This document shows, piece by piece, positions 740-49,978 of a stretch of DNA of 64,000 bases. The DNA comes from Octopus sinensis. Taxonomy: Eukaryota. Both the position numbers and the translations under genes were made by a program. Under the pieces are notes generated by a model. It searched no databases, was not told where the DNA came from, and worked only from the letters and a program-made list of their open reading frames with translations. The first letter of the stretch is position 1, and each line of letters starts with the position of its first letter. Location of the stretch: contig NC_043004.1 of the NCBI RefSeq assembly GCF_006345805.1, forward strand, positions 21,080,001-21,144,000, in the 5' to 3' direction.

Positions 740-1070
740 CATGTGTATATAGTTTTCATTGTTGAATCTATTGAGAAATTAGAGAAGTTCCAGGCTTTGA
801 AGCTAAACCTAGAATTAAGTGGTCTTAAGGTAAGTAAACTTAGCAAAGATGAAGATTTTAGTTATTAGGAAAGAAAAGACATTACTCTGGTAGCGTCAAA
901 GATATGGTCTTGCTTAATATGCAGAATCAGAGTTGGTGTAGACTCCTTATGCTGACCTGTTACATGCTATGGATGCACAAGAGGTGTAGTGGAATCAAAA
1001 GCAGACTAGCAGATAAAGTAAGCTTCATATATGGCACATGCACTGGAGCTGTATACAGCGGTGCACTTAT
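740..1070 (+). mobile_element. Decayed RTE-clade LINE fragment (post-RT Cys-rich region)
   Basis: Translates to WMHKRCSGIKSRLADKVSFIYGTCTG; homologous to minus-strand relics at 41100-41290 and 43500-43750. Confidence 0.65.
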
Positions 1071-1099
1071 TTATTCGAAATTTTAAAGTCAGTCATGAT

Positions 1100-3185
1100 A
1101 TCATCTCCTGTCTTATGAATCAAATCATATTCCTTCAAAGGGAGAGGTTCAAATCTCGTTAAGTAAACTTAATTCTGGAAAAACACAGGAATGTATGGAA
1201 TTGTAGCAGAGATTGTCTAGTTCGAAGCTTACCATATTGCAAAATCAATGTATAAAATAATAGTGATGTATAGAAGATAGGAACAGTTCCAAAAGTCTGA
1301 TGTGATGGTGTTATGCTCTGCTGCCAAAGTTTTTGCTGGGTTTTTCATTTTCTGATTAAATGATATGATTTCACTGAATGTTCTTCCAGAATCTCAGTGT
1401 AGCTTTAAGCCAAATAGAGTAACTATGGCTATGATATTTTCTGCAAATCTAGAGCAAGAAAAATGCTGAGAATAAAATCTAGATTTAGTCCAAGCCTTTG
1501 TTGATTTAACAAAGGCCTTTGACACAGTGAATCAGGAGGCATTATGGGAGGTTTGGCATAAGCTTGGCTATCCAATACATTTCATGAACATGATAAGATC
1601 TTTTCATAATGACATGTTTGCATTTGTCAGCATTGAAGGTGTTCTTTCAGAATCTTTTAAAGTGGAAAATAGAGTGAACCAAGGAGATATTCTTGGATCA
1701 GTGTTATTTTCTCTATACTTTTTGGTTATGCTTGCAAATGCATTCAAAGACTGCAGGGATGGTGTATGTATTCATTATAGAAACACTGGTAAATTATTTA
1801 ATTTGGAAAGGTTGCCAGGAAAAAGAAACACGTTTGTGTTTCTAATGAGAGGTTTATTGTATGCACATAACTGTAACTTAGTAACTTGTTCAATCAATGA
1901 ATTGCATCACTTAATGCTTAAAATTGACAAATCCCGTGCGATCTTTGAGATAGCATTAAATTTAGTTAAGTCTTTTGTTATGCTTCAGCTAGCATCCAGC
2001 TCATATTACGAATCTGATATTTTTCTTCAAAACACAAAACTGAATGTTGTAGATAGACTTATATATCTTGGTAGTGTGCTGAATCATGTTTGTTCTTTAA
2101 ATGATGAAATAGCTAACTCTCTTCAAAATGCATTTTGGGTTTTCAAGAGCCTTGAAGAGTGAGTTTGATCTAATAGAAATATTTCCAAAAACACAAAGGT
2201 TGCAGTATACAGGGTTTGTGTGCGTTCATCACTTTTTTTTTTATTCATGTCAGACATGGGTAGTATATTGGAAGCATCTGAAATTATCAAAGCAATTTCA
2301 TCAGAGATGTTTGTACTCTATACTGAAAATCAAATGAATGCACAAAGTACTGAATTCTGAAGCATTTGTGTGTGCTGGTGTAGATAGCATTGGAACTGAA
2401 GTTTATCTGCACAGACTTTGCAGGTCATGCTATCTGATATAGGAATCTAATCAATGCATGCCCAAATAATTGTTGTGCAGCCAGATAAAAAGAACAAAAA
2501 GACCTCAATATAAACCAAAAATGTGTTTCAGAGATTCAATAAAGAGCTCTTTAAAGAATTTCAAAAGGATGTATGCAAACTTGGAGAGGGATGCAATGGA
2601 CCAATCAAAATGGAAGAGAAAAGTCCGAGAAGGTACTTCTTTGTTTAAAGAGCATAAGCAGAAGCATAAATTGATAAAAAGAGAGGCAAGAAAGGGTTTG
2701 CTTGTAGCCATTGGTCCTTCTCTCTTAACTTGTGATACTTGCAACCGTATCTGTCTCTCCCAAGCTAGACTAGTTAGCAATAAACAGAAGCAATCATTTA
2801 GGCCCCCAATTAAATTTTCATAGTCACAATCAGATGCATCATCTTACTCTATTTGCTATAAGATCTGCAGAAATAAATCTGGGTTAACAAAACACATGAA
2901 TGTCACAATCATAATTGCTAGTAGTCTTTACAGCAAAATCAAGCATTTTCTTGTCATCTGTGTGGAAAAATCTGTAAATCTGTTGCTGGACTAAAGAGTC
3001 ATTTCTGGTTACATAACACACAGACTATCTCTAACCATCCTCTAGTAATTCTAAACTGTAAATAAGCTCCAAATTAACTGTAAGTTTGTGTGTTGTTGGC
3101 TTTTAACTGGTTTGGGACCTCTGTGTGCGTACTCTGCCAGTGCTGTCATACCCAATTAACAAGTCAACAGCAATCATCATCATAT
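1100..3185 (+). mobile_element. Decayed RTE/BovB-like LINE: reverse transcriptase plus C-terminal multi-C2H2 region
   Basis: Motifs LPESQCSF, AFVDLTKAFDTV, VNQGDILGSVLFSLY, LLYAHN (YADD-like), YLGS and FHQRCL are collinear with the young copy at 45851-47605; many stops and frameshifts; C2H2 fingers at 2731-3014. Confidence 0.9.
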
Positions 3186-3459
3186 ACATACATACTTACA
3201 TAAATAATGCATACATACATACATACATGCATAAAATATATAGATACATATGCACATACACACATATATAGTATTGTTCAATTGTAGGATTCATTAGAAT
3301 TCAGGTATTTCAGCATGCAGGACACCAGGAACAGTTGGGTATTCATCTCTATGTACATGCAGACAAGCATATTTACATACATACAGTTTTATATATATAT
3401 ATATATATTATATATATATATATATGTAAAATAATATGTGACAATTATTCGGTAGCCAA

Positions 3460-3520
3460 GATAAAACTCTGAGTTTCGGATGCCGAGGTGGAAATCCACA
3501 CCACCATCTCTTCAGTTATC
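3460..3520 (-). ncRNA. Minimal type I hammerhead ribozyme-like motif
   Basis: Minus strand reads GATAA-CTGAAGA-GATG..GTGGA/TCCAC..CATCC-GAAA-CTC A GAG-TT-TTATC: stem I GATAA/TTATC, intact CUGANGA and GAAA cores, near-palindromic stem III, GUU triplet. Confidence 0.7.
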
Positions 3521-4461
3521 ATCATCATCATCATCATCGTTTGACGTCCGTTCTCCATGCTAGCATGGGTTGGACGGTTCGACCGGAGATCTGGGAACCC
3601 AGAAGGCTGCACCAGGCTCCGGTCTTATCTGGCAATGTTTCTACAGCTGGATGCCCTTCCTAACACCAACCACTCCGTGAGTGTAGTGGGTGCTTTTTAC
3701 ATGCCACCTGCACTGGTGCCAGGCGAGGGTGGCATCGGCCATGGTCGGATTGGTGCATTTTACGTGCCACCTGCACGGAAGCCAGTCGAGGCGGCACTGG
3801 CTTTGGCCACGATTCGGATGGTGCTTTTTACGTGCCACCGACACGGAAGCCAGTCGAGGCGGCGCTGGCATCAGCCTCGATTCAGATAGTGCTTTTTACG
3901 TATCTCCAGTCCAGGGGTCCTGGCATCTGCCGGGTGCCAGTCATAGGATTGGTTCAATTTCGATTCCGATTTCACTTGCCCCAACAGGTCTTCGCAAGCA
4001 AAGGGGGGTTGGCATAGGTGCCTGTCATCGGATGAGGTTCGATATCAACTTCGCTTGCCTCAACAGGTCTTTGTGTGTCCAAGGGAGGAAAGGCATGCAT
4101 AAGTGGGCTGGACTCACTTGTCCTGCCTGGTCTTTTCACGCACAGCATATTTCCAAAGGTCTCGGTCGCTGGTCATTTCCTCAGTGAGACCTAAAGTTCG
4201 AAGGTCGTGCTTCACCACCTCGTCCCAAGTTTTCCTGGGTCTACCTCTTCCACGGGTTCCCTCCACTGCTAGGGATTGGCACTTTTTCACACACCTATCT
4301 TCATCCATTCTCACCACATGACCATACCAGCGCAATCGTCTCTCTTGCACACCACAACTGATGCTCCTTAGGTCCAACATTTCTCTCAGGGTACTAACGC
4401 TCTGTCGAGCATGCACACTGACATTACACATCCATCGGAGCATACTGGCTTCATTGGCCAG
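3517..4461 (-). mobile_element. 5'-truncated RTE LINE (ORF C-terminus, 3' UTR, (GAT)n tail)
   Basis: ORF 4114..4443 contains RRLRWYGHVVRM...GRGRPRKTWDEVVKHDL, a typical RTE C-terminus; GC-rich UTR; (GAT)n tail at 3517-3540. Confidence 0.92.
3688..3950. repeat. ~65-bp tandem repeat (about 4 units) in the RTE 3' UTR
   Basis: gtgc(t/a)tttta(c)(g/a)tgccacc..cacggaagccagtcgaggcggc recurs near 3690, 3754, 3821 and 3889. Confidence 0.8.
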
Positions 4462-6920: not shown

Positions 6921-7060
6921 ATGTGCATTATGTAATAGAATGTGCAAAAGTTTCACTGGGCTCAAGAGTCATACAAGGGCCTCACATTGCATCAACAATG
7001 ACGCATTTCAGTGATTCTTTCTAGCAATGGCTTTGCTTGTATATGAAAAATCAGCTAAGA
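6921..7060 (+). mobile_element. 3' fragment of zinc-finger-tailed RTE LINE (one C2H2 finger)
   Basis: CALCNRMCKSFTGLKSHTRASH followed by a tail resembling 10115-10148. Confidence 0.6.
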
Positions 7061-9797: not shown

Positions 9798-10150
9798 GTA
9801 GGTATGTACGTGTGTATGTAAAGCTGGACTCAAGAGTCATCTTCGTAGTCATAAAGTGAGACAGATGAGTGACAACCTGGCCACTAGTGGTGGTGTAACA
9901 CACCATACTAATAAAATCTGTCGGGCATGTGGAAGAGAGTGTAATTCAGCAGGAGGACTTAAACGACATGCATAGGTACATGAAGTCCAGTTACAACTAC
10001 AGCTGGCTATTACTGGTAAAGGTATTAGTTGCTAATTCTGTACAAGACATTGTAGATCTTTAGCTGGGCTAAAAAGTCACATTCGATCACAGCACCAGTA
10101 ACAGTTAAGCTTCGGGCAATGGCCATACTCGATAACGAGGGGCAGCCATA
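9796..10150 (+). mobile_element. 3' fragment of zinc-finger-tailed RTE LINE (three in-frame C2H2 fingers, 2 stops)
   Basis: One frame reads KAGLKSHLRSH..CRACGRECNSAGGLKRHA*VH..C*FCTRHCRSLAGLKSHIRSQH, followed by a ctcg-ataa-cgag stem-loop like the RTE 3' end near 47580. Confidence 0.75.
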
Positions 10151-10159
10151 ATAATGCAT

Positions 10160-10395
10160 GTATGTATGTATATGTGTGTGCGTGTGCCCCTGTGTTTGTG
10201 TTTGTCCCCACCACCACCACCACCACTTGACAACCGGTGTTGATGTGTGCAAGCCTGAAACTTAGCGGTTTGGCAAAAAACTGATAGAATATGTACCAGG
10301 TTTAAAGAATAACTGCTGTGGTCAATTCATTCAACTAAAGGTTTAAGGCTGTGCCCCAGCATGGCTGCAGTATAATGACTGAAGCAAATAAAAGA
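10160..10395 (+). mobile_element. SINE family A, 3' half
   Basis: tgtttgtcccc..cttgacaaccgg..cagcatggctgcag..aatgactgaagcaaataaaaga. Confidence 0.75.
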
Positions 10396-10773: not shown

Positions 10774-12720
10774 CTAGCTGAATGATCCGGAACTACCTGA
10801 GTTAATGCTGTTCTTATTCAGATTAGTAAACAATGAATATAAAGACATTCTCATTATTGTTTCAAAATATCTATATTTTATTAAGAAATATCCAAATTGT
10901 AATGACAATAGAATTTAGAATTGAACATCTATCAATGATGAAGTGCCTCAGGGTAAACAATATCCATTGTGAAATTTTTTGTTGGTGTTAAAATGAATAA
11001 ATTGTTGCAACTTCTAGCTCTTGAGCAAGCAACATGGAGTTGGCTGTGGGAGAAGCATGTGGTAGAGTGATCAAGTGCAAATACCTTGAGGGATTGACCC
11101 TGGGATTTGTTAATTGAAATTCCAAAACTTAGTTTGATCGGAAACTGAAGCATCTTAAATTCAAATGGAACATCTGTAGGTATGAGAGGAATTTTTGGAA
11201 TAAAGATATTTTCTCCTTTCTGACTACCTGTTATGATTGTTGCCTGTTTCATGGGGCTTCATGGAAGTAACAATTAAGTGAGTTCCATTATGCAGGTGAG
11301 ATGGGTCAAGATTCCTAAGAAACATAATGGGAGCACCCAGTTTTAGTGTCAAGTTATGTGGTGGCATTCCAGTAGGTTTAAGTGTGTTCAGGAATTCAAC
11401 AGGGTATTGAACAACCTGATCTTGATCAACTGTTGTCAATTTATTGAAAAGATATTTCTGATGTATCTGTTAACTTTTGAAGAAGTTCATGATTGAGTTT
11501 ATCAACCATTTCATTAGTTGGAGCTAGTATAGCTCTTTCACATAGCCAGTTTACACTAGTGTAATTGACAGATAAATTAGGAAGTACTTTATCCCTAAGA
11601 GAAAGTATCATTTGACCGCATGTAATTTCATATAGCTGAAGTCTTGAGTTGAATGTTAGTATACCATTACCAATCTTAAGCAACTCGTATGATCACCTTG
11701 TAGAAGTACTCTGATGTTGCTTGTAAGATGAAGTTTTTTCATGTCTCCAAAGATGCAATTTTTTGAGGCATACATTGACCTCCTCAGCTTTTGATCTTTT
11801 GAGAATAACTGGCAATGTTTGATGAAAATCTCCTACAAGAAGAACTGTTACTTCTCCTTTGAGCATGCCATTATTTTTTATGCCTTAAAGGGTATGGTCA
11901 AGCGCTTCCAGAGCTCCACTATGTGACAGTGCACTCATCTCAAACAATGAGGCAAGTTTGTTGTAGAACTGTTGCCATTGCAGAGTTTTGGGAAATGTTG
12001 CACATTTGAGATATTTCCATTGCAAGGTTTAGAGAGAGCTTGAACATGGAATGAACAGTTCTTCCCCCGTTGAGGAGGGTAACTGCAATACCAGAAGATG
12101 CAACACTGGAAGATTAGATTTTATTTCCTCCCATTTAGGATTGCAGGTGAAAGTAACAAAAAGATTTGGTTTTCCATATGTCCTGACATATGTCATAGAG
12201 TCTTGTGTTTGTTAGTGCATATATTGAGGACCACCTGTGAATGAGGATGAAAAGATTACAAGTTGCCCCATGTTTTGAATATCATCATCTGTCCTCAGAA
12301 CATCTTGGAGATGAGCATAATTTTTAGCCCTTAAGTTTTTTGATTGTTACGAATGTAGAGGAGACGCTGACTCACAACTTTAGCATAAATATCGACCAAG
12401 TATTGCTGAAACAGATCATGATACATGTGTAATTGATTTGAATGTTCTGGTCTTAACATCAGTTGGTAAGAATAGAAGTCACTTGACCACACCTTTTTGT
12501 TTGTAATTGGCTCTTCTATTGTAGGTTCAATCTGTGGAATATTGAAATGATACCCACTTGTCCATTCCACAGAATAAGAGGATACTGGAGAGCATCATAA
12601 GAGGGATGAATCTCTAAAATACATTAAAGGTTGTTATCTCGAGGATGAATGAGGATATTACAATTTTCATGGGGGATCACCTACTATAAGGATGGCTACT
12701 TTAAACAGTGTAAAATGTCC
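10774..12720 (-). mobile_element. Helitron relic (Rep and Pif1-type helicase fragments, internally deleted)
   Basis: Helicase motifs GGRTVHSMFK, RAILAPTN, GMPPHNLTLKLGAPIMFLRNL, QFPIKLSFGISINKSQGQSL and HSQLHVACSR; Rep motifs LFQQYLVDIYAKV and FVTFTCNPKW; CTAG-T 3' terminus at 10774-10777. Confidence 0.93.
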
Positions 12721-19186: not shown

Positions 19187-19223
<37 letters not shown>

Positions 19224-36169: not shown

Positions 36170-37110
36170 AAGTTTATTTTACTTTATCTCAACAAAAAGC
36201 AATGTGGTTAATCAAAGTATGCACCTAAATTATCAGCACAATTTTGCCATTTTATCGGTTGCTTGTTTATACTGGCAGCAAAGAGTACATGAGAGCAAGA
36301 GGTGATGAAATCACGAAAGACTGTTTTTGCATCTTCTTCAGATTTGAAGTTTTTCCTTGCAAAAAGTTGTCTAATGCTTCAAAAACATGATAATCAGTTG
36401 GTGCAAGGTCTGGTGAATATGGTGGATGACAGAGTACTTCCAAGTTCAGTTGCTGTAACTTGAGTAGCGTTCTTTGTGCAACATGTGATTGAGCATTGTC
36501 GTGTAAGAGGACTGGCCTGTCTGTATTGACGAATCTCGTTTGTTTAATTGCAAGTTCTCTCATCTTTTCATCCAGTTGGTTAATGCATACATCCACTGTA
36601 ATTGACTTACCAGGTCTCATGAAACTGTAATGAATGACACCAGTGATGAATCACCAAACAGACACCATTAGCTTTTTTTGGTGAATATTCTTTCTGGATT
36701 GTGTTTTGGCACTTCGTTTCTATCCCATCACCATACTTGCTATTGGTGAAAAGAATCCATTTTTCATCACATGTAACAATACAATACAAAAATGGTTTGC
36801 TTTTATGCCATGACAGTAACAAACAGCAAGTTTAAAGACGACCTGTCATTTGATGCTTGTTCAGTTTGTGTAGTACCTACTCCACTTGTTCAGCTTCTTT
36901 ACCTTGCCGATTTGTTTCAGATGGTCCAATACAGTTGGAATTGAAACATCAAACCTTGCTGCTAACTCACACATAGTTTGAGATGTATCCACTTCCACTA
37001 CAGTTTCCAGCTCATCATTATCCACCTTGGTCTCAGGTCTACCCCGAGGCTGATTTTCAAGAGTAAAGTCACCATACCTTCCATAAGTCTTCCACCAAAC
37101 CTTAGTCACA
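36170..37110 (-). mobile_element. mariner transposase relic
   Basis: PRGRP, IVTCDEKWI, LLHDNAQSH and HPPYSPDLAPTDYHVF (DD34D) across three frames. Confidence 0.92.
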
Positions 37111-38789: not shown

Positions 38790-39245
38790 CTCAGGATACC
38801 CCAAGACTGTTTCCACACATTTTCCCCCTTTCATCTTGATCTTCCATAATGGTCCTCAGCTCCTGTACCCTTTCCATACCAGTATCCTCCAGCAAATTGT
38901 TGATATAGGTCGTCTTCCTCTTTCCTTTCCTGGTTCTTCCTTCCATTGGTTGCCAGAGCACTAGCTTATTAACAATTCCATTGATATGTCTGATGTAGTG
39001 ACCAACTAACCTCATCTTTCTATGCTGTATCTTCAATGTTACTTTTGTTAGTCCCTGGTATAGGTCAGTGTTTGTTGTATGATTCTTACAGGAGACATCG
39101 AGTGCCATTGTAAGCATCCTCATATAACAACCATCCAACTGCTTCTTCAATGCTTTAGTGAGCATCCATGTTTCAACCCCGTAAAAAAGAACAAACTCCT
39201 TGCTAAATTTGAACTCCTTTCTCAGTTTATGGCCTTGTTCCAAAC
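38790..39245 (-). mobile_element. RTE-like LINE ORF C-terminal fragment
   Basis: LFYGVETW..LDGCYMRML..MRLVGHYIRH..LVLWQP..GKRKTTY. Confidence 0.85.
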
Positions 39246-39613
39246 TCTCTTGAAACTTGATACAGGATTTTGTTTCTTTCCTGAATTTGAGCCATCACTC
39301 ATCTGTTGTTATAATAGTAGTTCTGGGCCTACCAGATCCTTTCTTTTTTGTGTTCCAATCTTCTGGATGTGTAAACTTATCATTATAAGTAGAAAAATAA
39401 AGAGTTAATTCTTTTGGTAGCTTTTGTGTTAGAGAATATTTTGTGATAACTTCATGAAAAATAGAATTTGATTTTGAATATCCACATCAGTCACATCAGC
39501 ATGGAATTTCATTTCCCTTGAAAGCAACTCACTTGAAACAAATCTTAGCTAATGTAGCTATTCATGTAATTAGAGCAATTTATGCAGAGCTTTTGCTTTG
39601 ACTCTTTAATGCT

Positions 39614-44410: not shown

Positions 44411-45850
44411 GCATATATGTATGTAAATATTTTCTTATTGTTTGGGGTATATGTATATACCCTCATGCAAGTGAAACTGTGCTTCATTACAGCAGATAAA
44501 ATGAATGTCATTTGCTTGGCTAATTTCCAAAGAAATAGAATAGAGTATTTTTGAAAATGTCAAGAAAGGAATGAAGAATTTCGGTTTTGCTATTACCTAA
44601 TCATCCCTCACCTCTTCCTTCTCAGTAGAAATTCTGAAATGGAATGGAACAGTTACAGTAAACAATGTGAAACTCAAGGACAACAACTACAACAATAGGA
44701 ATTACAGAATTAGTGAATGGTAACATCTTCTGCTACAGTAAATTCCATTTCATGGAATCAGTGAATTATATGGGATGGGATGACAAGAATTAGATATAAT
44801 TACTCAGAGATTTTATTGATGAAATCAATAGTACATTTAGATTGGTTGTTTAATCACCATCCCATGACGACGATGATGATCCTCCCCCCTTCCCTCTTCC
44901 CCACCTCCTCCTCCGCATCATCATCATCATCAGTAGCAGCACCGGCATCACAAATACCATCATCATCATCAACATCATTAGCATCATCATCATCATTTTT
45001 GTTGTTGTTATCACAATCACCATCACCACTATCACCACCACCGCCACCATCACCAACACTACCACCATCACCAACACTACCACCACCACCAACAACAACA
45101 TCACCACCAACAACAACATCATCATCAGCAACTACCAGCATCATGACTACGACCACTACCATGACGACCACGACCGCCACCACCTGTAACAGCAGAGACT
45201 CATTGTCATTCTCTGTAGAATTGTCGCTACCACTACTAACATGGTGACCGCAATAATGGCCTACTCCACCTTCCACTCTTATTCCTTATTGTTTTTTATT
45301 TGCGCTATTATAGTTTGTTGTTATTCTCTAATTGCCTTAAAGCTTTGATCCTATTTAAGAAATCACCACCACCACCACTACTGCTATCATTGCCACCATT
45401 TCTGTTACCACCATCACTGCCACCACTACCATTGACACCACTGCTACTACAGCCATCATCATTACTACTTTGATACATCACCACCACCACCACCACCAAC
45501 ACACCACCACCACCTTTACTGCTACTACTACCACTACCACCACTATCACCACCTCTACTGTTGCTGCTACCACCACCACCACCTCTACTACTACTACAAT
45601 ACTACTACTACTACTATATCAATAAGAGAATTATTTACCTCCTACCTTATTTCCTTCACTCTTCTCTTTCCCACAGGTAAACTTGTTGCCAAACTTTACC
45701 AAACTGAAATCAATTGATATAAATAACAGATCAATAAACTGAAGGAAGATAATGATTAATTAGGGCAGCAGACATAATCAGTCGAAATCTATTGACATGG
45801 TTACCTACAACTGCAACAAGGACAACAATAATACAACCACAGCAACACTA

Positions 45851-47605
45851 CCACCGGCAAAGCTCCAGGCTCTGACGCCATCCCTGCAGAGGTGTTCAAG
45901 TCGGGAGGCCCCACCATGATCAGTCAGCTCACCAGCCTGTTCCAGTCGATGTGGGACAGGGAACAACTCCCTCAAGATTTCCGGGATGCAACAATCGTCC
46001 ACATTTATAAGCGGAAAGGAGATCGGCAGTCCTGCGACAACCACCGAGGTATTTCCCTCTTGTCCATAGCAGGCAAGATCCTGGCCCGGGTCCTGCTTGA
46101 CCGCCTTCTGGAACACTTGGAGCAAGGCCTTCTCCCTGAGAGCCAGTGTGGCTTCCGTGCGGGTCGAGGGACCACTGACATGATATTCGCCGCCCGCCAG
46201 CTCCAGGAGAAATGCATGGAGCAGCACCTTGACCTCTGCATGACCTTTGTTGACCTCACCAAGGCCTTTGATACAGTCAGTCGGGAGGGACTATGGAAGG
46301 TCATGGGAAAATTTGGTTGCCCCAGCAAATTTATTGCAATTGTCCGCCAGTTCCACGACGGAATGACAGCCAGAATCCTTGAGGACGGCGACTCATCTGA
46401 AGCCTTCCAGGTGACCAACGGAGTCAGGCAGGGCTGTGTCCTGGCCCCAACACTGTTCAGCATCATGTTCTCGGCAATGATGTCCGACGCCTTTAGGGAC
46501 TGCAAGTCCGGTATCAACATCAAGTACAGGACAGACGGAAACTTTTCAACTCCAGGAGATTGCAGGCTGTCACAAAGGTGAGGGAGACAGTCGTCAGAGA
46601 CTTTCTCTTTGCTGACGACTGCGCCCTTAATGCAATCGATGAGCAGGAGATGCAGCTCGAGATGGACAGGTTCTCATCAGCCTGTGACAACTTCGGTCTC
46701 ACCATCAGTGCAAAGAAAACCGAAGTGATGTTTCAGCCAGCCCCCGGCAAACAATACCATGAGCCTCAGATAAGGGTGAACGGACGGATCTTACGAGTGG
46801 TGGAAAACTTCACCTACCTGGGCAGCACTCTCTCCTGCAATGCCAACATAGATGCTGAAACCATCAACAGAATCTCCAAGGCAAGCAGCGCGTTTGGGAG
46901 ACTGCGAGAGAAAGTCTGGGAGCGGAGAGGAATCAGCCTCAACACCAAGCTGAAAGTCTACCGGGCAGTCGTGCTTACCACTCTACTATACGGCTGCGAG
47001 ACGTGGACTGCTTACCGAAGGCACGAGCGCCAGATAAACCACTTCCATCTCAGGTGTCTTCGGAATCTCCTTCACATCCGCTGGCAGGACAAAGTCCCAG
47101 ACACGGAAGTTCTGAAGCAGGCAGATCTCCCTAGCACCATCACAATCATGCGCAAGGACCAGCTGAGATGGGCGGGCCATGTCTCCCGCATGTCCGACAC
47201 TCGCATCCCAAAACAGCTCTTCTACGGTGAACTCGGCCAGGGCAGGCGCAAAGTCGGAGGGCAGAAAAAGCGCTACAAGGATAGTCTCAAGGTCTCTCTC
47301 AAAGACTTCTCCATCGGAACAGAGACCTGGGAGACACTTGCTGCCAACCGCTCATCCTGGCGCAGCGCAATCACCGTGGGAGCAGGGACAGCCGAGGAGG
47401 GACGGATTCGGTCAGCGGAGCAGAAACGTCAGATGCGTAAAGTCAGAGCCGCCTGCACCAGTAGCACTGCCCCTACCCACTTCTGCCCCACCTGTGGGAG
47501 GGGCTTCCTTGCCCGGATTGGCCTCACCAGCCACCTCCGGTCTCATGGCGGCAGTTCCATCAGATGATGTCAGTTGGTCATCTTCGAACCGAAGGACGAA
47601 CATTA
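45851..47605 (+). mobile_element. Young 5'-truncated RTE/BovB-like LINE
   Basis: GKAPGSD, RGISLLS, ESQCGFR, FVDLTKAFDTV, GVRQGCVLAP, LFADD, YLGS, WAGHV and a terminal C2H2 finger CPTCGRGFLARIGLTSHLRSH; 3' stem-loop, (att)n tail, possible taccacc TSD. Confidence 0.97.
45856..47567 (+). pseudogene. RTE reverse transcriptase ORF, N-terminally truncated, single frameshift
   Basis: ORFs 45892..46581 and 46560..47567 join if one A is restored at 46539-46541 (DGKLFNSRRLQ); no other lesion seen. Confidence 0.9.
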
Positions 47606-49978
47606 TTATTACCACCACCCTCACCACCACTAGAAATACTAATATCTGTGCCAATCATTAACAACAGCATCACCACTAGCAACAACAATGACACCCCCCC
47701 ACACACACCCAGCAGTACTGCCAACAACAACAACAATAACAGTGCTACCCTCACCCACCAGCCATACCAGCACCACTGTTGCCGCCCTTGCCACCACCTT
47801 TATTAACAGCTGGACCAAAATAACAACAATACAAATAATTATTACCATGTGAAGGAAGAGCTGTTACAAGAATTTGAACCCTTATCCACAACTTTGCAAC
47901 AAACTCAAATAAATATATGTGTGTGTGTGTGTGTGTTATAACTGATTTATTTCACTTCCAGAAATAACTTACATTGACCTGCTGAGAAGATAGTGTTAAC
48001 TCTTAAGTTGTTGCTCAGCCTGTTGGAAATAACAACTAAATCTCTCTCAGATCACACCCAACCACTGTTTTTTTTTTTTAGATGGAAGGATAAGTTTTCT
48101 TATATAGAATTAGAAGGGTCATGACAGGGATGCCCTCAATAATAAGTCTGTCTAGACTGAGGCAAACTCAAGTTGAAAAACATCAATAGTTACTAATGTC
48201 TCTTTAGATATTTGAGCTGTTATTCTGCTGTTTAACAGTGATGTACCAACAGATTTACTGCTATGGCCTACAGTAGTTTTTATACTGTCTGTAACCCATA
48301 CAATCTTACTTGTGACCCACACAGTATTTTCTAAATAAAAGCAAATATCAATGATGAACCATTATTCAAACTTTGATTGACCTTGTGCCAAAATTTGAAA
48401 CCATTATTCATGCTATGATAATAGCAAAAAGCAGCACTGTCCGCTCTTTGTGTGGCCCACATCTAAGCTATACAACTTATTTCTGTATGCAACAATCACA
48501 AAGTCTGAGGTCTATGCATTATTGCTGTATATAACATTGACAAAAAAAAAAAAATTAAATTGCACTTAATCTATTTTATTTGAAGTACAAAGCATCTAAA
48601 TAACTATCTTGTTTTATTGCAAATTTTGAATTTGTATTTGAAAGTTTTCCACTCTTAATTTTCCTATCCACAAACTGAATTTATTGTTTATTCAATAAGT
48701 TAGCTATAAGCCAGCTGTATTAAAACTTTCAAATTACATTTAAAAAAAATCTATTTTAGTACTTCATGTTAGACAAGAATTAGAACATTAGATGTCTTCA
48801 TAAAATTAAGTATTCATGTCAGTTTTATGAAAAGTTTGTGGTTAGCAAAGAAAACTGTGTAAGTCTATAGACACATGACAATAAACTCTTTTTCAATATC
48901 ACAAGCACACGGTCACTACAGAAATCAATGATAAGTGCAAAGCTTACTACTAAACCATCATACACTAGACCTCACTCTATTCCATTGTGATAATATATCT
49001 TCGATGTTGCCAAAACAGTATGTATAGGAACTAATCTTTTCTTTTCAGAAGTACATACAGTCTGATTAACTATAGACCATCTACAAAGGTGAGGTGTGAT
49101 TAGCATTGAGGATGTGACTGACATTTGTATAATGTAGCTACACAATGTAGCTATACACACATTGAGGATACGGCTCACGCATCTTACATAGTCCTTCCCT
49201 CCCACTTTCTTCTTTATTGTTTTTCTTTTGCTATTTTTATTTAGTTATTATTCTACTTGCTTCTAGCAAATTACATCCTTGTGCCAAAATTTGAAACCAT
49301 TATTTGAAACCAAAAGATCCGTATTCACACTTTTACTTTAGGGATACCATCTACATATTTTGTATAGGGTAGTTACTCACACACATACACACATGTACAT
49401 ACACTCACACTCTCTCTCTCTCACACACATACACACATGCATGCAGAGAAACCAACACTAAATATTTATACTTGTTATGCTGTAAATAACACCCAACCAT
49501 CTCTAAATTCATGATACATGAGACTACATTCAGGCAATGTAGTACTAAATACATGATGTCTGAAAGCAATACTTGGATACTGGGATGGAACTCTTTTTAT
49601 CTTAAGTGTGTTCAATCTGGGGTGACTTGGGGCCAGTGCTATCTAAAGGCAGGGGCACACTGGGCAATTAGGGATTCATTTCTGATCTATGTATGATTTG
49701 TCTTGCTGTCAATAAATAAATACTATAGGGCCCAGTATATTGATTTGCCTGGGGGCCTACAATGCTGCTAAGACAGCTTGCCCGGGGTTAAACATCAACA
49801 ATAACACACACACAAATGATCTAACATGCACACCATGAAATCTTTAGCAAATTGATAAAGACTCACCAACCATTGAGCAAAACTGCTTTAGTATTATTCA
49901 TACATATCTCATTCTCCCATCTACTAATCCTACCATATTTATAACAACCTTACCCAAAGAGTAAGTTACACAGTGTAT

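What the first reader, a model, noticed from the sequence alone, without database searches (positions are those of the whole stretch)
2731..3135. RTE/BovB-like LINE ending in an array of 3-4 C2H2 zinc fingers
Seen: after the RT and thumb region the relic encodes CDTCNRICLSQARLVS, (C)SICYKICRNKSGLTKHMNV, an intact CHLCGKICKSVAGLKSHFWLH (2952-3014) and a possible fourth finger near 3075-3135. The related young RTE at about 47480-47550 has only one finger. The fingers carry Cys at the usual Phe position and have long non-TGEKP linkers. Known: octopus genomes have a large C2H2 gene expansion. Inference: this is a LINE subfamily with an amplified nucleic-acid-binding tail that scatters finger arrays and may inflate or seed C2H2 gene annotations.
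Basis: partly seen in the sequence, partly recalled or inferred. Interest (0 to 1): 0.7.

Follow-up and report, generated by a model that had tools for sequence, protein, structure and literature searches.

The report
Three-finger RTE retrotransposon relic
This is a broken copy of a jumping gene whose intact relatives end in three conserved zinc fingers instead of the usual one; the fingers likely grip the element's own RNA or DNA without reading a sequence, and young truncated copies of such elements would be miscounted as zinc-finger genes.

Summary
The relic is real and ends in three C2H2 fingers, not four. Window 1257-3183 is a 5'-truncated, dead non-LTR retrotransposon with RTE anatomy: RT, thumb, fingers at 2731, 2845 and 2952, and a 3' hairpin motif with a (CAT)n tail. 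Only finger 3 is intact. The proposed fourth finger scores at chance. Thirty-three full-length relatives from 10 clusters carry endonuclease/RT plus three fingers in one ORF, so the fingers belong to the element. On RT and thumb alone, the relic falls in a 100/100 branch of multi-finger elements, apart from the window's young one-finger element. Each relic finger best matches its own position. Fingers are more conserved than the thumb, with Ser at -1, Gly at +3 and roughly 16-residue non-TGEKP linkers, so they are probably not a sequence-reading array. Two more fragments lie at 9805-10156 and 6922. Truncated young relatives pass Pfam's zf-C2H2 cut-off without an RT hit, but no window finger does. 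No seeding of host genes was shown. The host was not identified. Ten paper searches found no description; Repbase and Dfam could not be checked.

The parts
1257..2231 (+). 5'-truncated reverse transcriptase of the relic; 6 stops; catalytic YADD reads YAHN at 1860-1871; no endonuclease found upstream
   Evidence: Pfam RVT_1 34.2 bits; 40-45% identical to intact three-finger proteins; stops; motif against LYADD in 33 of 33 full-length relatives
2236..2730 (+). thumb / C-terminal helical region after a frame change in the T run near 2233; 3 stops; same frame as fingers 1 and 2
   Evidence: 34% identical over 225 aa to P0060, running without a break into finger 2; contigs of X6 and X9 lack one base at 2233, while X2 and X3 match the window
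2731..2793 (+). finger 1, decayed (both His lost)
   Evidence: scores 38 bits on the finger-1 matrix, against -0.5 and 4 on the finger-2 and finger-3 matrices
2845..2907 (+). finger 2, decayed (first Cys is Tyr, last His lost); stop at 2821 in the linker before it
   Evidence: 23 bits on the finger-2 matrix, against 7 and 16; stop list
2952..3014 (+). finger 3, intact C2H2 motif, in another frame than fingers 1-2
   Evidence: 58 bits on the finger-3 matrix, against 35 and 49; Pfam zf-C2H2 15.8 bits, below the cut-off; the frame change is also in X2 and X3 contigs
3015..3144 (+). about 130 nt between finger 3 and the 3' motif (the proposed fourth finger); no finger signal; about 100 nt longer than in other copies
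   Evidence: chance-level scores; the same gap is 17-30 nt in the 9805 fragment, the young element, L002, L007 and L014; other-copy contigs join 3005 to 3083 and 2580 to 3083, with only 24-29 nt on the short side
3145..3183 (+). 3' end of the element: decayed hairpin motif and (CAT)n tail
   Evidence: aligns with the 3' ends of L007, L014, L002, the young element and the 9805 fragment
9805..10156 (+). second, shorter 3' fragment of the same kind: end of finger 1, finger 2 and finger 3 in one frame with 2 stops, then the hairpin motif and an (AAT)n tail
   Evidence: as query it found 18 proteins, 16 with an RT domain
6922..6990 (+). third fragment: one terminal finger of the same type behind a (TA)n run
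   Evidence: best on the finger-3 matrix, by a small margin
45850..47610 (+). young one-finger element used for comparison (another branch, RIG-type finger at 47484-47546)

Best explanation
The stretch is a dead, 5'-truncated copy of a single-ORF LINE of RTE anatomy whose intact relatives end in three position-specific C2H2 fingers, which likely help the protein hold its own RNA or the target DNA without reading a sequence. Shown: the anatomy, the decay, the three fingers in frame with endonuclease and RT in relatives, their conservation, and the relic's place among them. From established knowledge of APE-type LINEs: the copy arose by target-primed reverse transcription from the 3' end, which stopped early; this is why fingers, hairpin and tail are left behind more often than RT. 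Inferred: the tail arose by triplication of the one terminal finger in an ancestor of this branch and has been kept by selection. It acts as separate fingers on flexible linkers that add non-specific nucleic-acid grip (odds: RNA or non-specific nucleic acid 0.55, protein contact 0.25, target-sequence reading 0.2). The window copies make no working protein.
For: 33 proteins of at least 1080 aa from 10 clusters end in three fingers and all have LYADD. Six of six scanned carry an endonuclease hit and RVT_1. Intact proteins align collinearly to the relic from RT to finger 3. In a tree without finger columns the relic sits in a 100/100 branch of 23 rows (16 three-finger, 2 two-finger, 4 truncated or decayed, the relic), and the young element lies outside (same result with 56 rows). 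Each relic finger scores best on its own position's matrix. Among 44 proteins, the same finger is 62-64% identical between proteins, the preceding thumb part 48%, and the linkers 13-15%. In 47 proteins, helix position -1 is Ser or Thr in all fingers, +3 is Gly in 140 of 141, and median linkers are 16 aa with no TGEKP. The AlphaFold model of P0008 gives three strand-helix finger units with low overall pTM (0.37), and its nearest folds are classical C2H2 arrays, weakly. The 3' motif and microsatellite tail lie downstream of the fingers. CpG observed/expected is 0.14 in the relic and 0.63 in the young element.
Against: No experiment or structure shows what the fingers bind. Finger 2 has Arg at +6 in 41 of 47, and the near-invariant helices would also suit one fixed target or partner. 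Fingers are dispensable elsewhere: 146 of 276 hit proteins have one finger, 57 have none by the pattern (many are fragments), and P0124 inside the branch ends after finger 1. The multi-finger proteins were collected with finger-bearing queries, so their share is inflated. The tree has no outgroup and no named RTE or BovB reference, and the relic is a long branch with odd composition. No target-site duplication was found. The extra 100 nt after finger 3 is unexplained.
Confidence: 0.8

Rival explanations
1. The three fingers read a DNA sequence and steer insertion, as the N-terminal fingers of R2-type elements do.
For: Strong position-specific conservation and Arg at +6 of finger 2; nearest folds are DNA-bound C2H2 arrays, all at E above 0.001; zinc fingers aid target recognition in RLE-type elements (PMC13708176, passage).
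Against: Gly at +3 and Ser at -1 give few base contacts (recalled C2H2 code). Linkers of 6-24 aa vary freely, unlike tandem DNA-reading arrays. RTE insertion was reported as not sequence-specific in moths (PMC2887409, passage).
Confidence: 0.17
2. The fingers are a protein-contact module (self-association or a host factor) rather than nucleic-acid binders.
For: Small, uncharged helix faces and spaced fingers are known from protein-binding C2H2 fingers (recalled, from no call).
Against: Conserved Lys/Arg around the helices (+1, +5, +6) fits backbone contacts; invariance across distant elements would need a very conserved partner.
Confidence: 0.2
3. The LINE landed beside, or transduced, part of a host C2H2 gene, so the fingers are not part of the element.
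For: The relic's fingers are split by a stop and a frame change; cephalopod genomes hold very many C2H2 genes (PMC9068888, passage).
Against: Intact single ORFs with the same three fingers in the same order; the element's 3' motif lies downstream of the fingers; a second fragment has the same layout.
Confidence: 0.02
4. This host's subfamily had a fourth finger at 3075-3135 that has decayed beyond recognition.
For: The gap after finger 3 is about one finger unit longer than in five other 3' ends; a Cys-rich stretch and a Gly-Leu pair lie at about the right distance; other copies seem to share the stretch.
Against: Three tests at chance level; 0 of 276 hit proteins have four fingers; intact proteins can have finger-free tails of up to 45 aa.
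Confidence: 0.15
5. Copies of this element make up a real share of the host's annotated C2H2 genes, or have seeded true genes.
For: Of intact three-finger proteins, 4 of 6 plus P0113 and P0129 pass Pfam's zf-C2H2 cut-off, whereas the one-finger young element scores 11.8. P0129 (290 aa, cluster of 86) and P0311 (5 fingers) pass with no RVT_1 hit. A one-finger RT protein from a crab is named 'C2H2-type domain-containing' in UniRef (P0210).
Against: All three window loci are below the cut-off and two carry stops. Much of the squid expansion sits on one chromosome, 1675 of 2785 genes, though only 9% does so in octopus. Wells 2023 counted ORFs with five or more fingers. No named cephalopod protein appeared among the 120 + 18 listed hits.
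Confidence: 0.12

Closest known systems
RTE-2_OV of Octopus vulgaris (Petrosino 2022, PMC9115989; passages, section 8 and part of the supplements seen)
   Same: Single ORF with endonuclease, RT and a C2H2 finger, and a microsatellite at the 3' end.
   Different: Described with 'a' C2H2 finger, called relatively rare in RTE elements; the branch found here has three. Its sequence could not be retrieved, so whether it belongs to this branch is untested.
RTE-clade elements of moths (Tay 2010, PMC2887409; passages seen)
   Same: Single endonuclease-RT ORF, short 3' UTR with trinucleotide repeats, abundant 3' fragments.
   Different: No mention of zinc or cysteine motifs in the main text (0 occurrences).
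One-finger 'RIG-type' elements (young window element, L002, L007, L014, many hit proteins)
   Same: Same RT-thumb layout (about 45-55% identity), Gly at +3, frequent Cys at the Phe position, same 3' hairpin motif.
   Different: One finger with an Arg-Ile-Gly helix; other side of a 100/100 branch.
Tapeworm multi-finger RT proteins (P0213, named Spirometra erinaceieuropaei; P0228 and P0311 are like it but unnamed here)
   Same: RT protein with 3-5 terminal C2H2 fingers.
   Different: RIG-type fingers separated by long Ser/Thr/Pro stretches; probably a separate multiplication (not placed in the tree).
Human LINE-1 ORF2p and R2 proteins (solved structures)
   Same: Best sequence matches in the PDB over endonuclease and RT (E 1e-52 and 2e-36).
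   Different: The matches stop before the tail. L1 ends in a CCHC knuckle and R2 has its fingers at the N-terminus (recalled). No RTE protein was among the 21 PDB matches.
Tandem Kruppel-type C2H2 host proteins
   Same: C-x2-C-x12-H-x3-H spacing and fold.
   Different: No TGEKP linkers, mostly Cys for Phe, invariant small helix residues, fused to an RT.

Membership tests
RTE clade of non-LTR retrotransposons | One ORF with an APE endonuclease followed by RT | tested here: met
   Met in relatives: 6 of 6 full-length proteins have an endonuclease hit and RVT_1. The relic itself is truncated and lacks the endonuclease. Absence of an ORF1 was not checked on DNA.
RTE clade of non-LTR retrotransposons | Short 3' UTR ending in a simple repeat rather than poly(A) | tested here: met
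   (CAT)n at 3173-3183 and (AAT)n at 10148-10156 behind a shared hairpin motif.
RTE clade of non-LTR retrotransposons | RT groups with named RTE references in a phylogeny | not tested
   No named RTE protein was in hand; the trees hold unnamed or hypothetical proteins. That the thumb motifs are RTE-like is recalled.
RTE clade of non-LTR retrotransposons | Target-site duplication | tested here: inconclusive
   Only one 8-nt match between the flanks; an old copy with microsatellite flanks may have lost it.
BovB sub-group | Clusters with BovB consensus sequences | not testable with these tools
   No Repbase or Dfam library is available.
Classical C2H2 zinc finger (Pfam zf-C2H2) | Cys2-His2 ligands and a score above the curated cut-off | tested here: inconclusive
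   6 of 8 intact three-finger relatives scanned pass. In the relic only finger 3 keeps all four ligands, and it scores 15.8 against 25.2.
Tandem Kruppel-type ZNF genes | TGEKP-type short linkers | tested here: not met
   0 of 47; median linker 16 aa.
Tandem Kruppel-type ZNF genes | Five or more fingers in one ORF (working definition of Wells 2023) | tested here: not met
   Three fingers; only P0311 of 276 hit proteins reaches five.

The most novel reading that the evidence does not exclude
An undescribed, old and widespread branch of RTE LINEs carries a dedicated three-finger module, and finger multiplication has happened more than once in these elements (up to five fingers in tapeworm-like copies). 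Their truncated 3' ends form a measurable part of invertebrate 'C2H2 gene' counts, biasing the reported link between transposon load and zinc-finger gene number, or have founded real host genes.
Probability: 0.2. Interest if true: 0.7.

Novelty: new variant of a known kind. Interest (0 to 1): 0.36.

Why it matters
A C-terminal finger in RTE elements is described as rare and single (PMC9115989). A stable three-finger branch with intact members gives a natural 0/1/3-finger series for asking what the tail does in retrotransposition. That matters because RTE proteins are being developed as gene-insertion tools (PMC13708176, passages) and no RTE protein showed up among solved structures. It is also a concrete annotation trap: a 5'-truncated young copy looks to Pfam like a zinc-finger protein with no RT. 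The locus itself is a dead relic with no sign of function.

Tried and rejected
No host genome is held, so no genome-wide copy count or family alignment could be made. The relic's own thumb-finger peptide found no homologue among 478 candidates (too decayed for a word search). The metagenome scan with P0090 gave 26 loci; 6 reach a terminal finger, all single, so no DNA of an intact three-finger element was obtained. The fourth finger was rejected by three tests. The 3' hairpin is not significant by folding energy (z between -0.59 and 0.25 in five sequences); only its shared stem pattern is noted. No target-site duplication. No RNA holder listed, which is no evidence either way. The ESM Atlas gave generic C2H2 look-alikes and unnamed eukaryotic clusters (commonest Mollusca in one, Chordata in another); leads only. 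The fold search gave no match at E <= 0.001. No Rfam match in the window. Three look-ups of earlier findings were empty. There is no model of the full-length protein, so how the fingers sit against the RT is open. The RTE-2_OV sequence was not found in the supplements that could be searched (files 5-8 not searched, two too large). Albertin 2015 is not held, and the supplementary notes of Albertin 2022 on C2H2 counting were not seen. Ten paper searches showed no description of a three-finger RTE.

Full report
Observation. Translation of 1000-3600 shows an RT in one frame (1257-2231), a thumb region with fingers 1 and 2 in a second frame (2236-2907), and finger 3 back in the first frame (2952-3014). 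The RT scores 34.2 bits on Pfam RVT_1, has six stops, and reads YAHN for the catalytic YADD. Only finger 3 keeps all four zinc ligands. The damage is real: contigs of run X2, from another study than the possible source run, match with no difference over most of the stretch, including the frame change between fingers 2 and 3. Runs X6 and X9 lack one base at 2233, where RT and thumb change frame, so that break is younger than the insertion. The stretch is held at 80-99% of its words by runs under three organism labels.

The fourth finger. Three tests put 3015-3150 at chance: a frameshift-tolerant profile (-28 bits; 1389 of 2000 shuffles and 1302 of 2504 window bins as high), an HMM (421 of 1000 shuffles), and DNA alignment to six real fingers (180-682 of 1000 shuffles). 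None of 276 hit proteins has four fingers. In its favour, the gap from finger 3 to the element's 3' motif is 130 nt, against 17-30 nt in five other 3' ends; four further ends gave only poor motif matches. Short joints in other-copy contigs also suggest the stretch belongs to the family. I give a lost fourth finger 0.15.

More copies. The same finger type occurs at 9805-10095 (part of finger 1, then fingers 2 and 3 in one frame) and at 6922-6990. The first ends in a clean GCCATACTCGA..ACGAG motif with an (AAT)n tail. The relic has a decayed version at 3145-3163 and (CAT)n at 3173-3183; one-finger elements in L002, L007 and L014 and the young window element share the motif. The fingers therefore lie inside the element. 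Four runs hold 19-23 contigs each under 90% identity, some joining RT to finger positions.

Intact relatives. The relic's own tail found nothing. The 9805 fragment found 18 proteins, 16 with an RT domain, and profile searches added more. Of 276 distinct listed hits, a pattern count gives 50 with three fingers, 22 with two, 146 with one, 57 with none, and 1 with five; the queries contained fingers, so these shares are biased. Among all 468 proteins fetched, 33 of at least 1080 aa from 10 clusters end in three fingers, all with LYADD. Six of six scanned have an endonuclease hit and RVT_1. They align collinearly to the relic from RT to finger 3. Nearly all are unnamed, and a few are mislabelled as bacterial metagenome proteins. 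Clusters of 247 and 86 members include megabase contigs, as expected of high-copy elements in animal genomes (the inference is mine).

Phylogeny. Trees used RT and thumb without finger columns. With 56 rows (FastTree) and 43 rows (IQ-TREE; 13 rows dropped, one long branch and twelve to thin), the relic falls in a fully supported branch. In one search this holds 16 three-finger and 2 two-finger proteins plus 4 counted as one-finger; three of those four are cut or decayed three-finger tails, and P0124 ends after finger 1. The young window element lies on the other side, with 18 one-finger proteins and one two-finger protein of the RIG type. There is no outgroup and no named RTE or BovB reference, and the relic is a long branch. 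Tapeworm (P0213) and psyllid (P0251) RT proteins also have several fingers, which suggests separate multiplications; they were not placed in the tree.

The fingers. In 47 three-finger proteins (three divergent ones set aside: P0213, P0228, P0327), helix position -1 is always Ser or Thr, +3 is Gly in 140 of 141 fingers, +6 is Ser/Asn, Arg and Ser for fingers 1, 2 and 3, linkers have a median of 16 residues, and none is TGEKP. In the 44 that include the thumb, each finger is 62-64% identical between proteins, against 48% for the preceding region, 13-15% for linkers, and 43-51% between fingers of one protein. Each relic finger scores best against its own position. An AlphaFold model of P0008 shows three finger units after a long helix, with low overall confidence (pTM 0.37), and weak matches to classical C2H2 arrays.

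How it works. From established knowledge of APE-type LINEs, the protein nicks DNA and copies its RNA from the 3' end; early stops leave 3' fragments, as reported for moth RTEs (PMC2887409, passages). My inference is that the finger tail was triplicated once in this branch and kept by selection. Small invariant helix residues and free linkers argue against a sequence-reading array, so added grip on the element's RNA or on DNA backbone is most likely (0.55), ahead of protein contact (0.25) and target reading (0.2). None of this is tested.

Annotation claim. Four of six full-length proteins and P0113 and P0129 pass the zf-C2H2 cut-off; P0129 and the five-finger P0311 do so without an RT hit, while the young one-finger element scores 11.8. 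So three fingers do turn a truncated LINE into a Pfam zinc-finger protein. But all three window loci fall below the cut-off, Wells 2023 required five fingers (passages), and 60% of squid C2H2 genes, though only 9% of octopus ones, sit on one chromosome (PMC9068888, passages). No seeding of a host gene was seen. How Albertin and colleagues counted genes could not be read.

Known versus new. Petrosino 2022 describes octopus RTE-2_OV with a C2H2 finger, called relatively rare (passages, section 8 and partial supplements). PMC12988792 (passages) discusses transposons and zinc-finger expansion without element-encoded fingers in the passages seen. Malik and Eickbush 1998 was seen only as a reference. 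Ten searches showed no three-finger RTE, but the library lacks most subscription papers, and Repbase and Dfam were out of reach and may well hold such consensus entries. Verdict: a real but modest new variant of a known kind; interest 0.36.

Noticed in passing
window 9805-10156 and 6922-7060 (+): Two more 3' fragments with the same finger type; the first keeps two and a half fingers in one frame and a clean 3' hairpin motif.
   Followed up: yes
window 45850-47610 (+): Young 5'-truncated one-finger LINE, 55% GC, with one frame change near 46545; 78% identical to P0164.
   Followed up: partly
P0213, P0228, P0311, P0356: Tapeworm-type RT proteins with 2-5 RIG-type fingers in repeated blocks; P0311 has five Pfam zf-C2H2 hits and no RVT_1 hit, enough to count as a tandem zinc-finger ORF.
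   Followed up: partly
P0103, P0400: Members of this LINE branch are deposited as proteins of bacterial metagenome bins (Nitrosomonadaceae, Anaerolineales); probably animal DNA in the bins.
   Followed up: no
window 4114-4440 (-) and 38791-39294 (-): 3' fragments of other LINEs with a related thumb motif (weak tblastn hits); no finger found. The first is followed by a GC-richer stretch with a 68-nt tandem repeat at 3689-3901.
   Followed up: no
window 36267-36650 (-): DDE transposase fragment, mariner-like (Pfam DDE_3 E 4e-5, Transposase_1 E 0.003).
   Followed up: no
window 10932-11258 (-): Helicase C-terminal fragment (weak Pfam hit); looks like a Helitron/PIF1 relic, from recall.
   Followed up: no
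window 10160-10300, with matches near 19194, 20257, 23653, 28536, 50966, 52295: A short dispersed repeat (about 70% identity) starts right behind the second fragment's tail; probably a SINE.
   Followed up: no
3' ends of L007, L014, window 10122-10139 and 47577-47593: The 3' hairpin stem differs on both sides between elements (ACTCG/CGAGT against CTTCG/CGAAG) yet still pairs; folding z-scores are not significant.
   Followed up: partly
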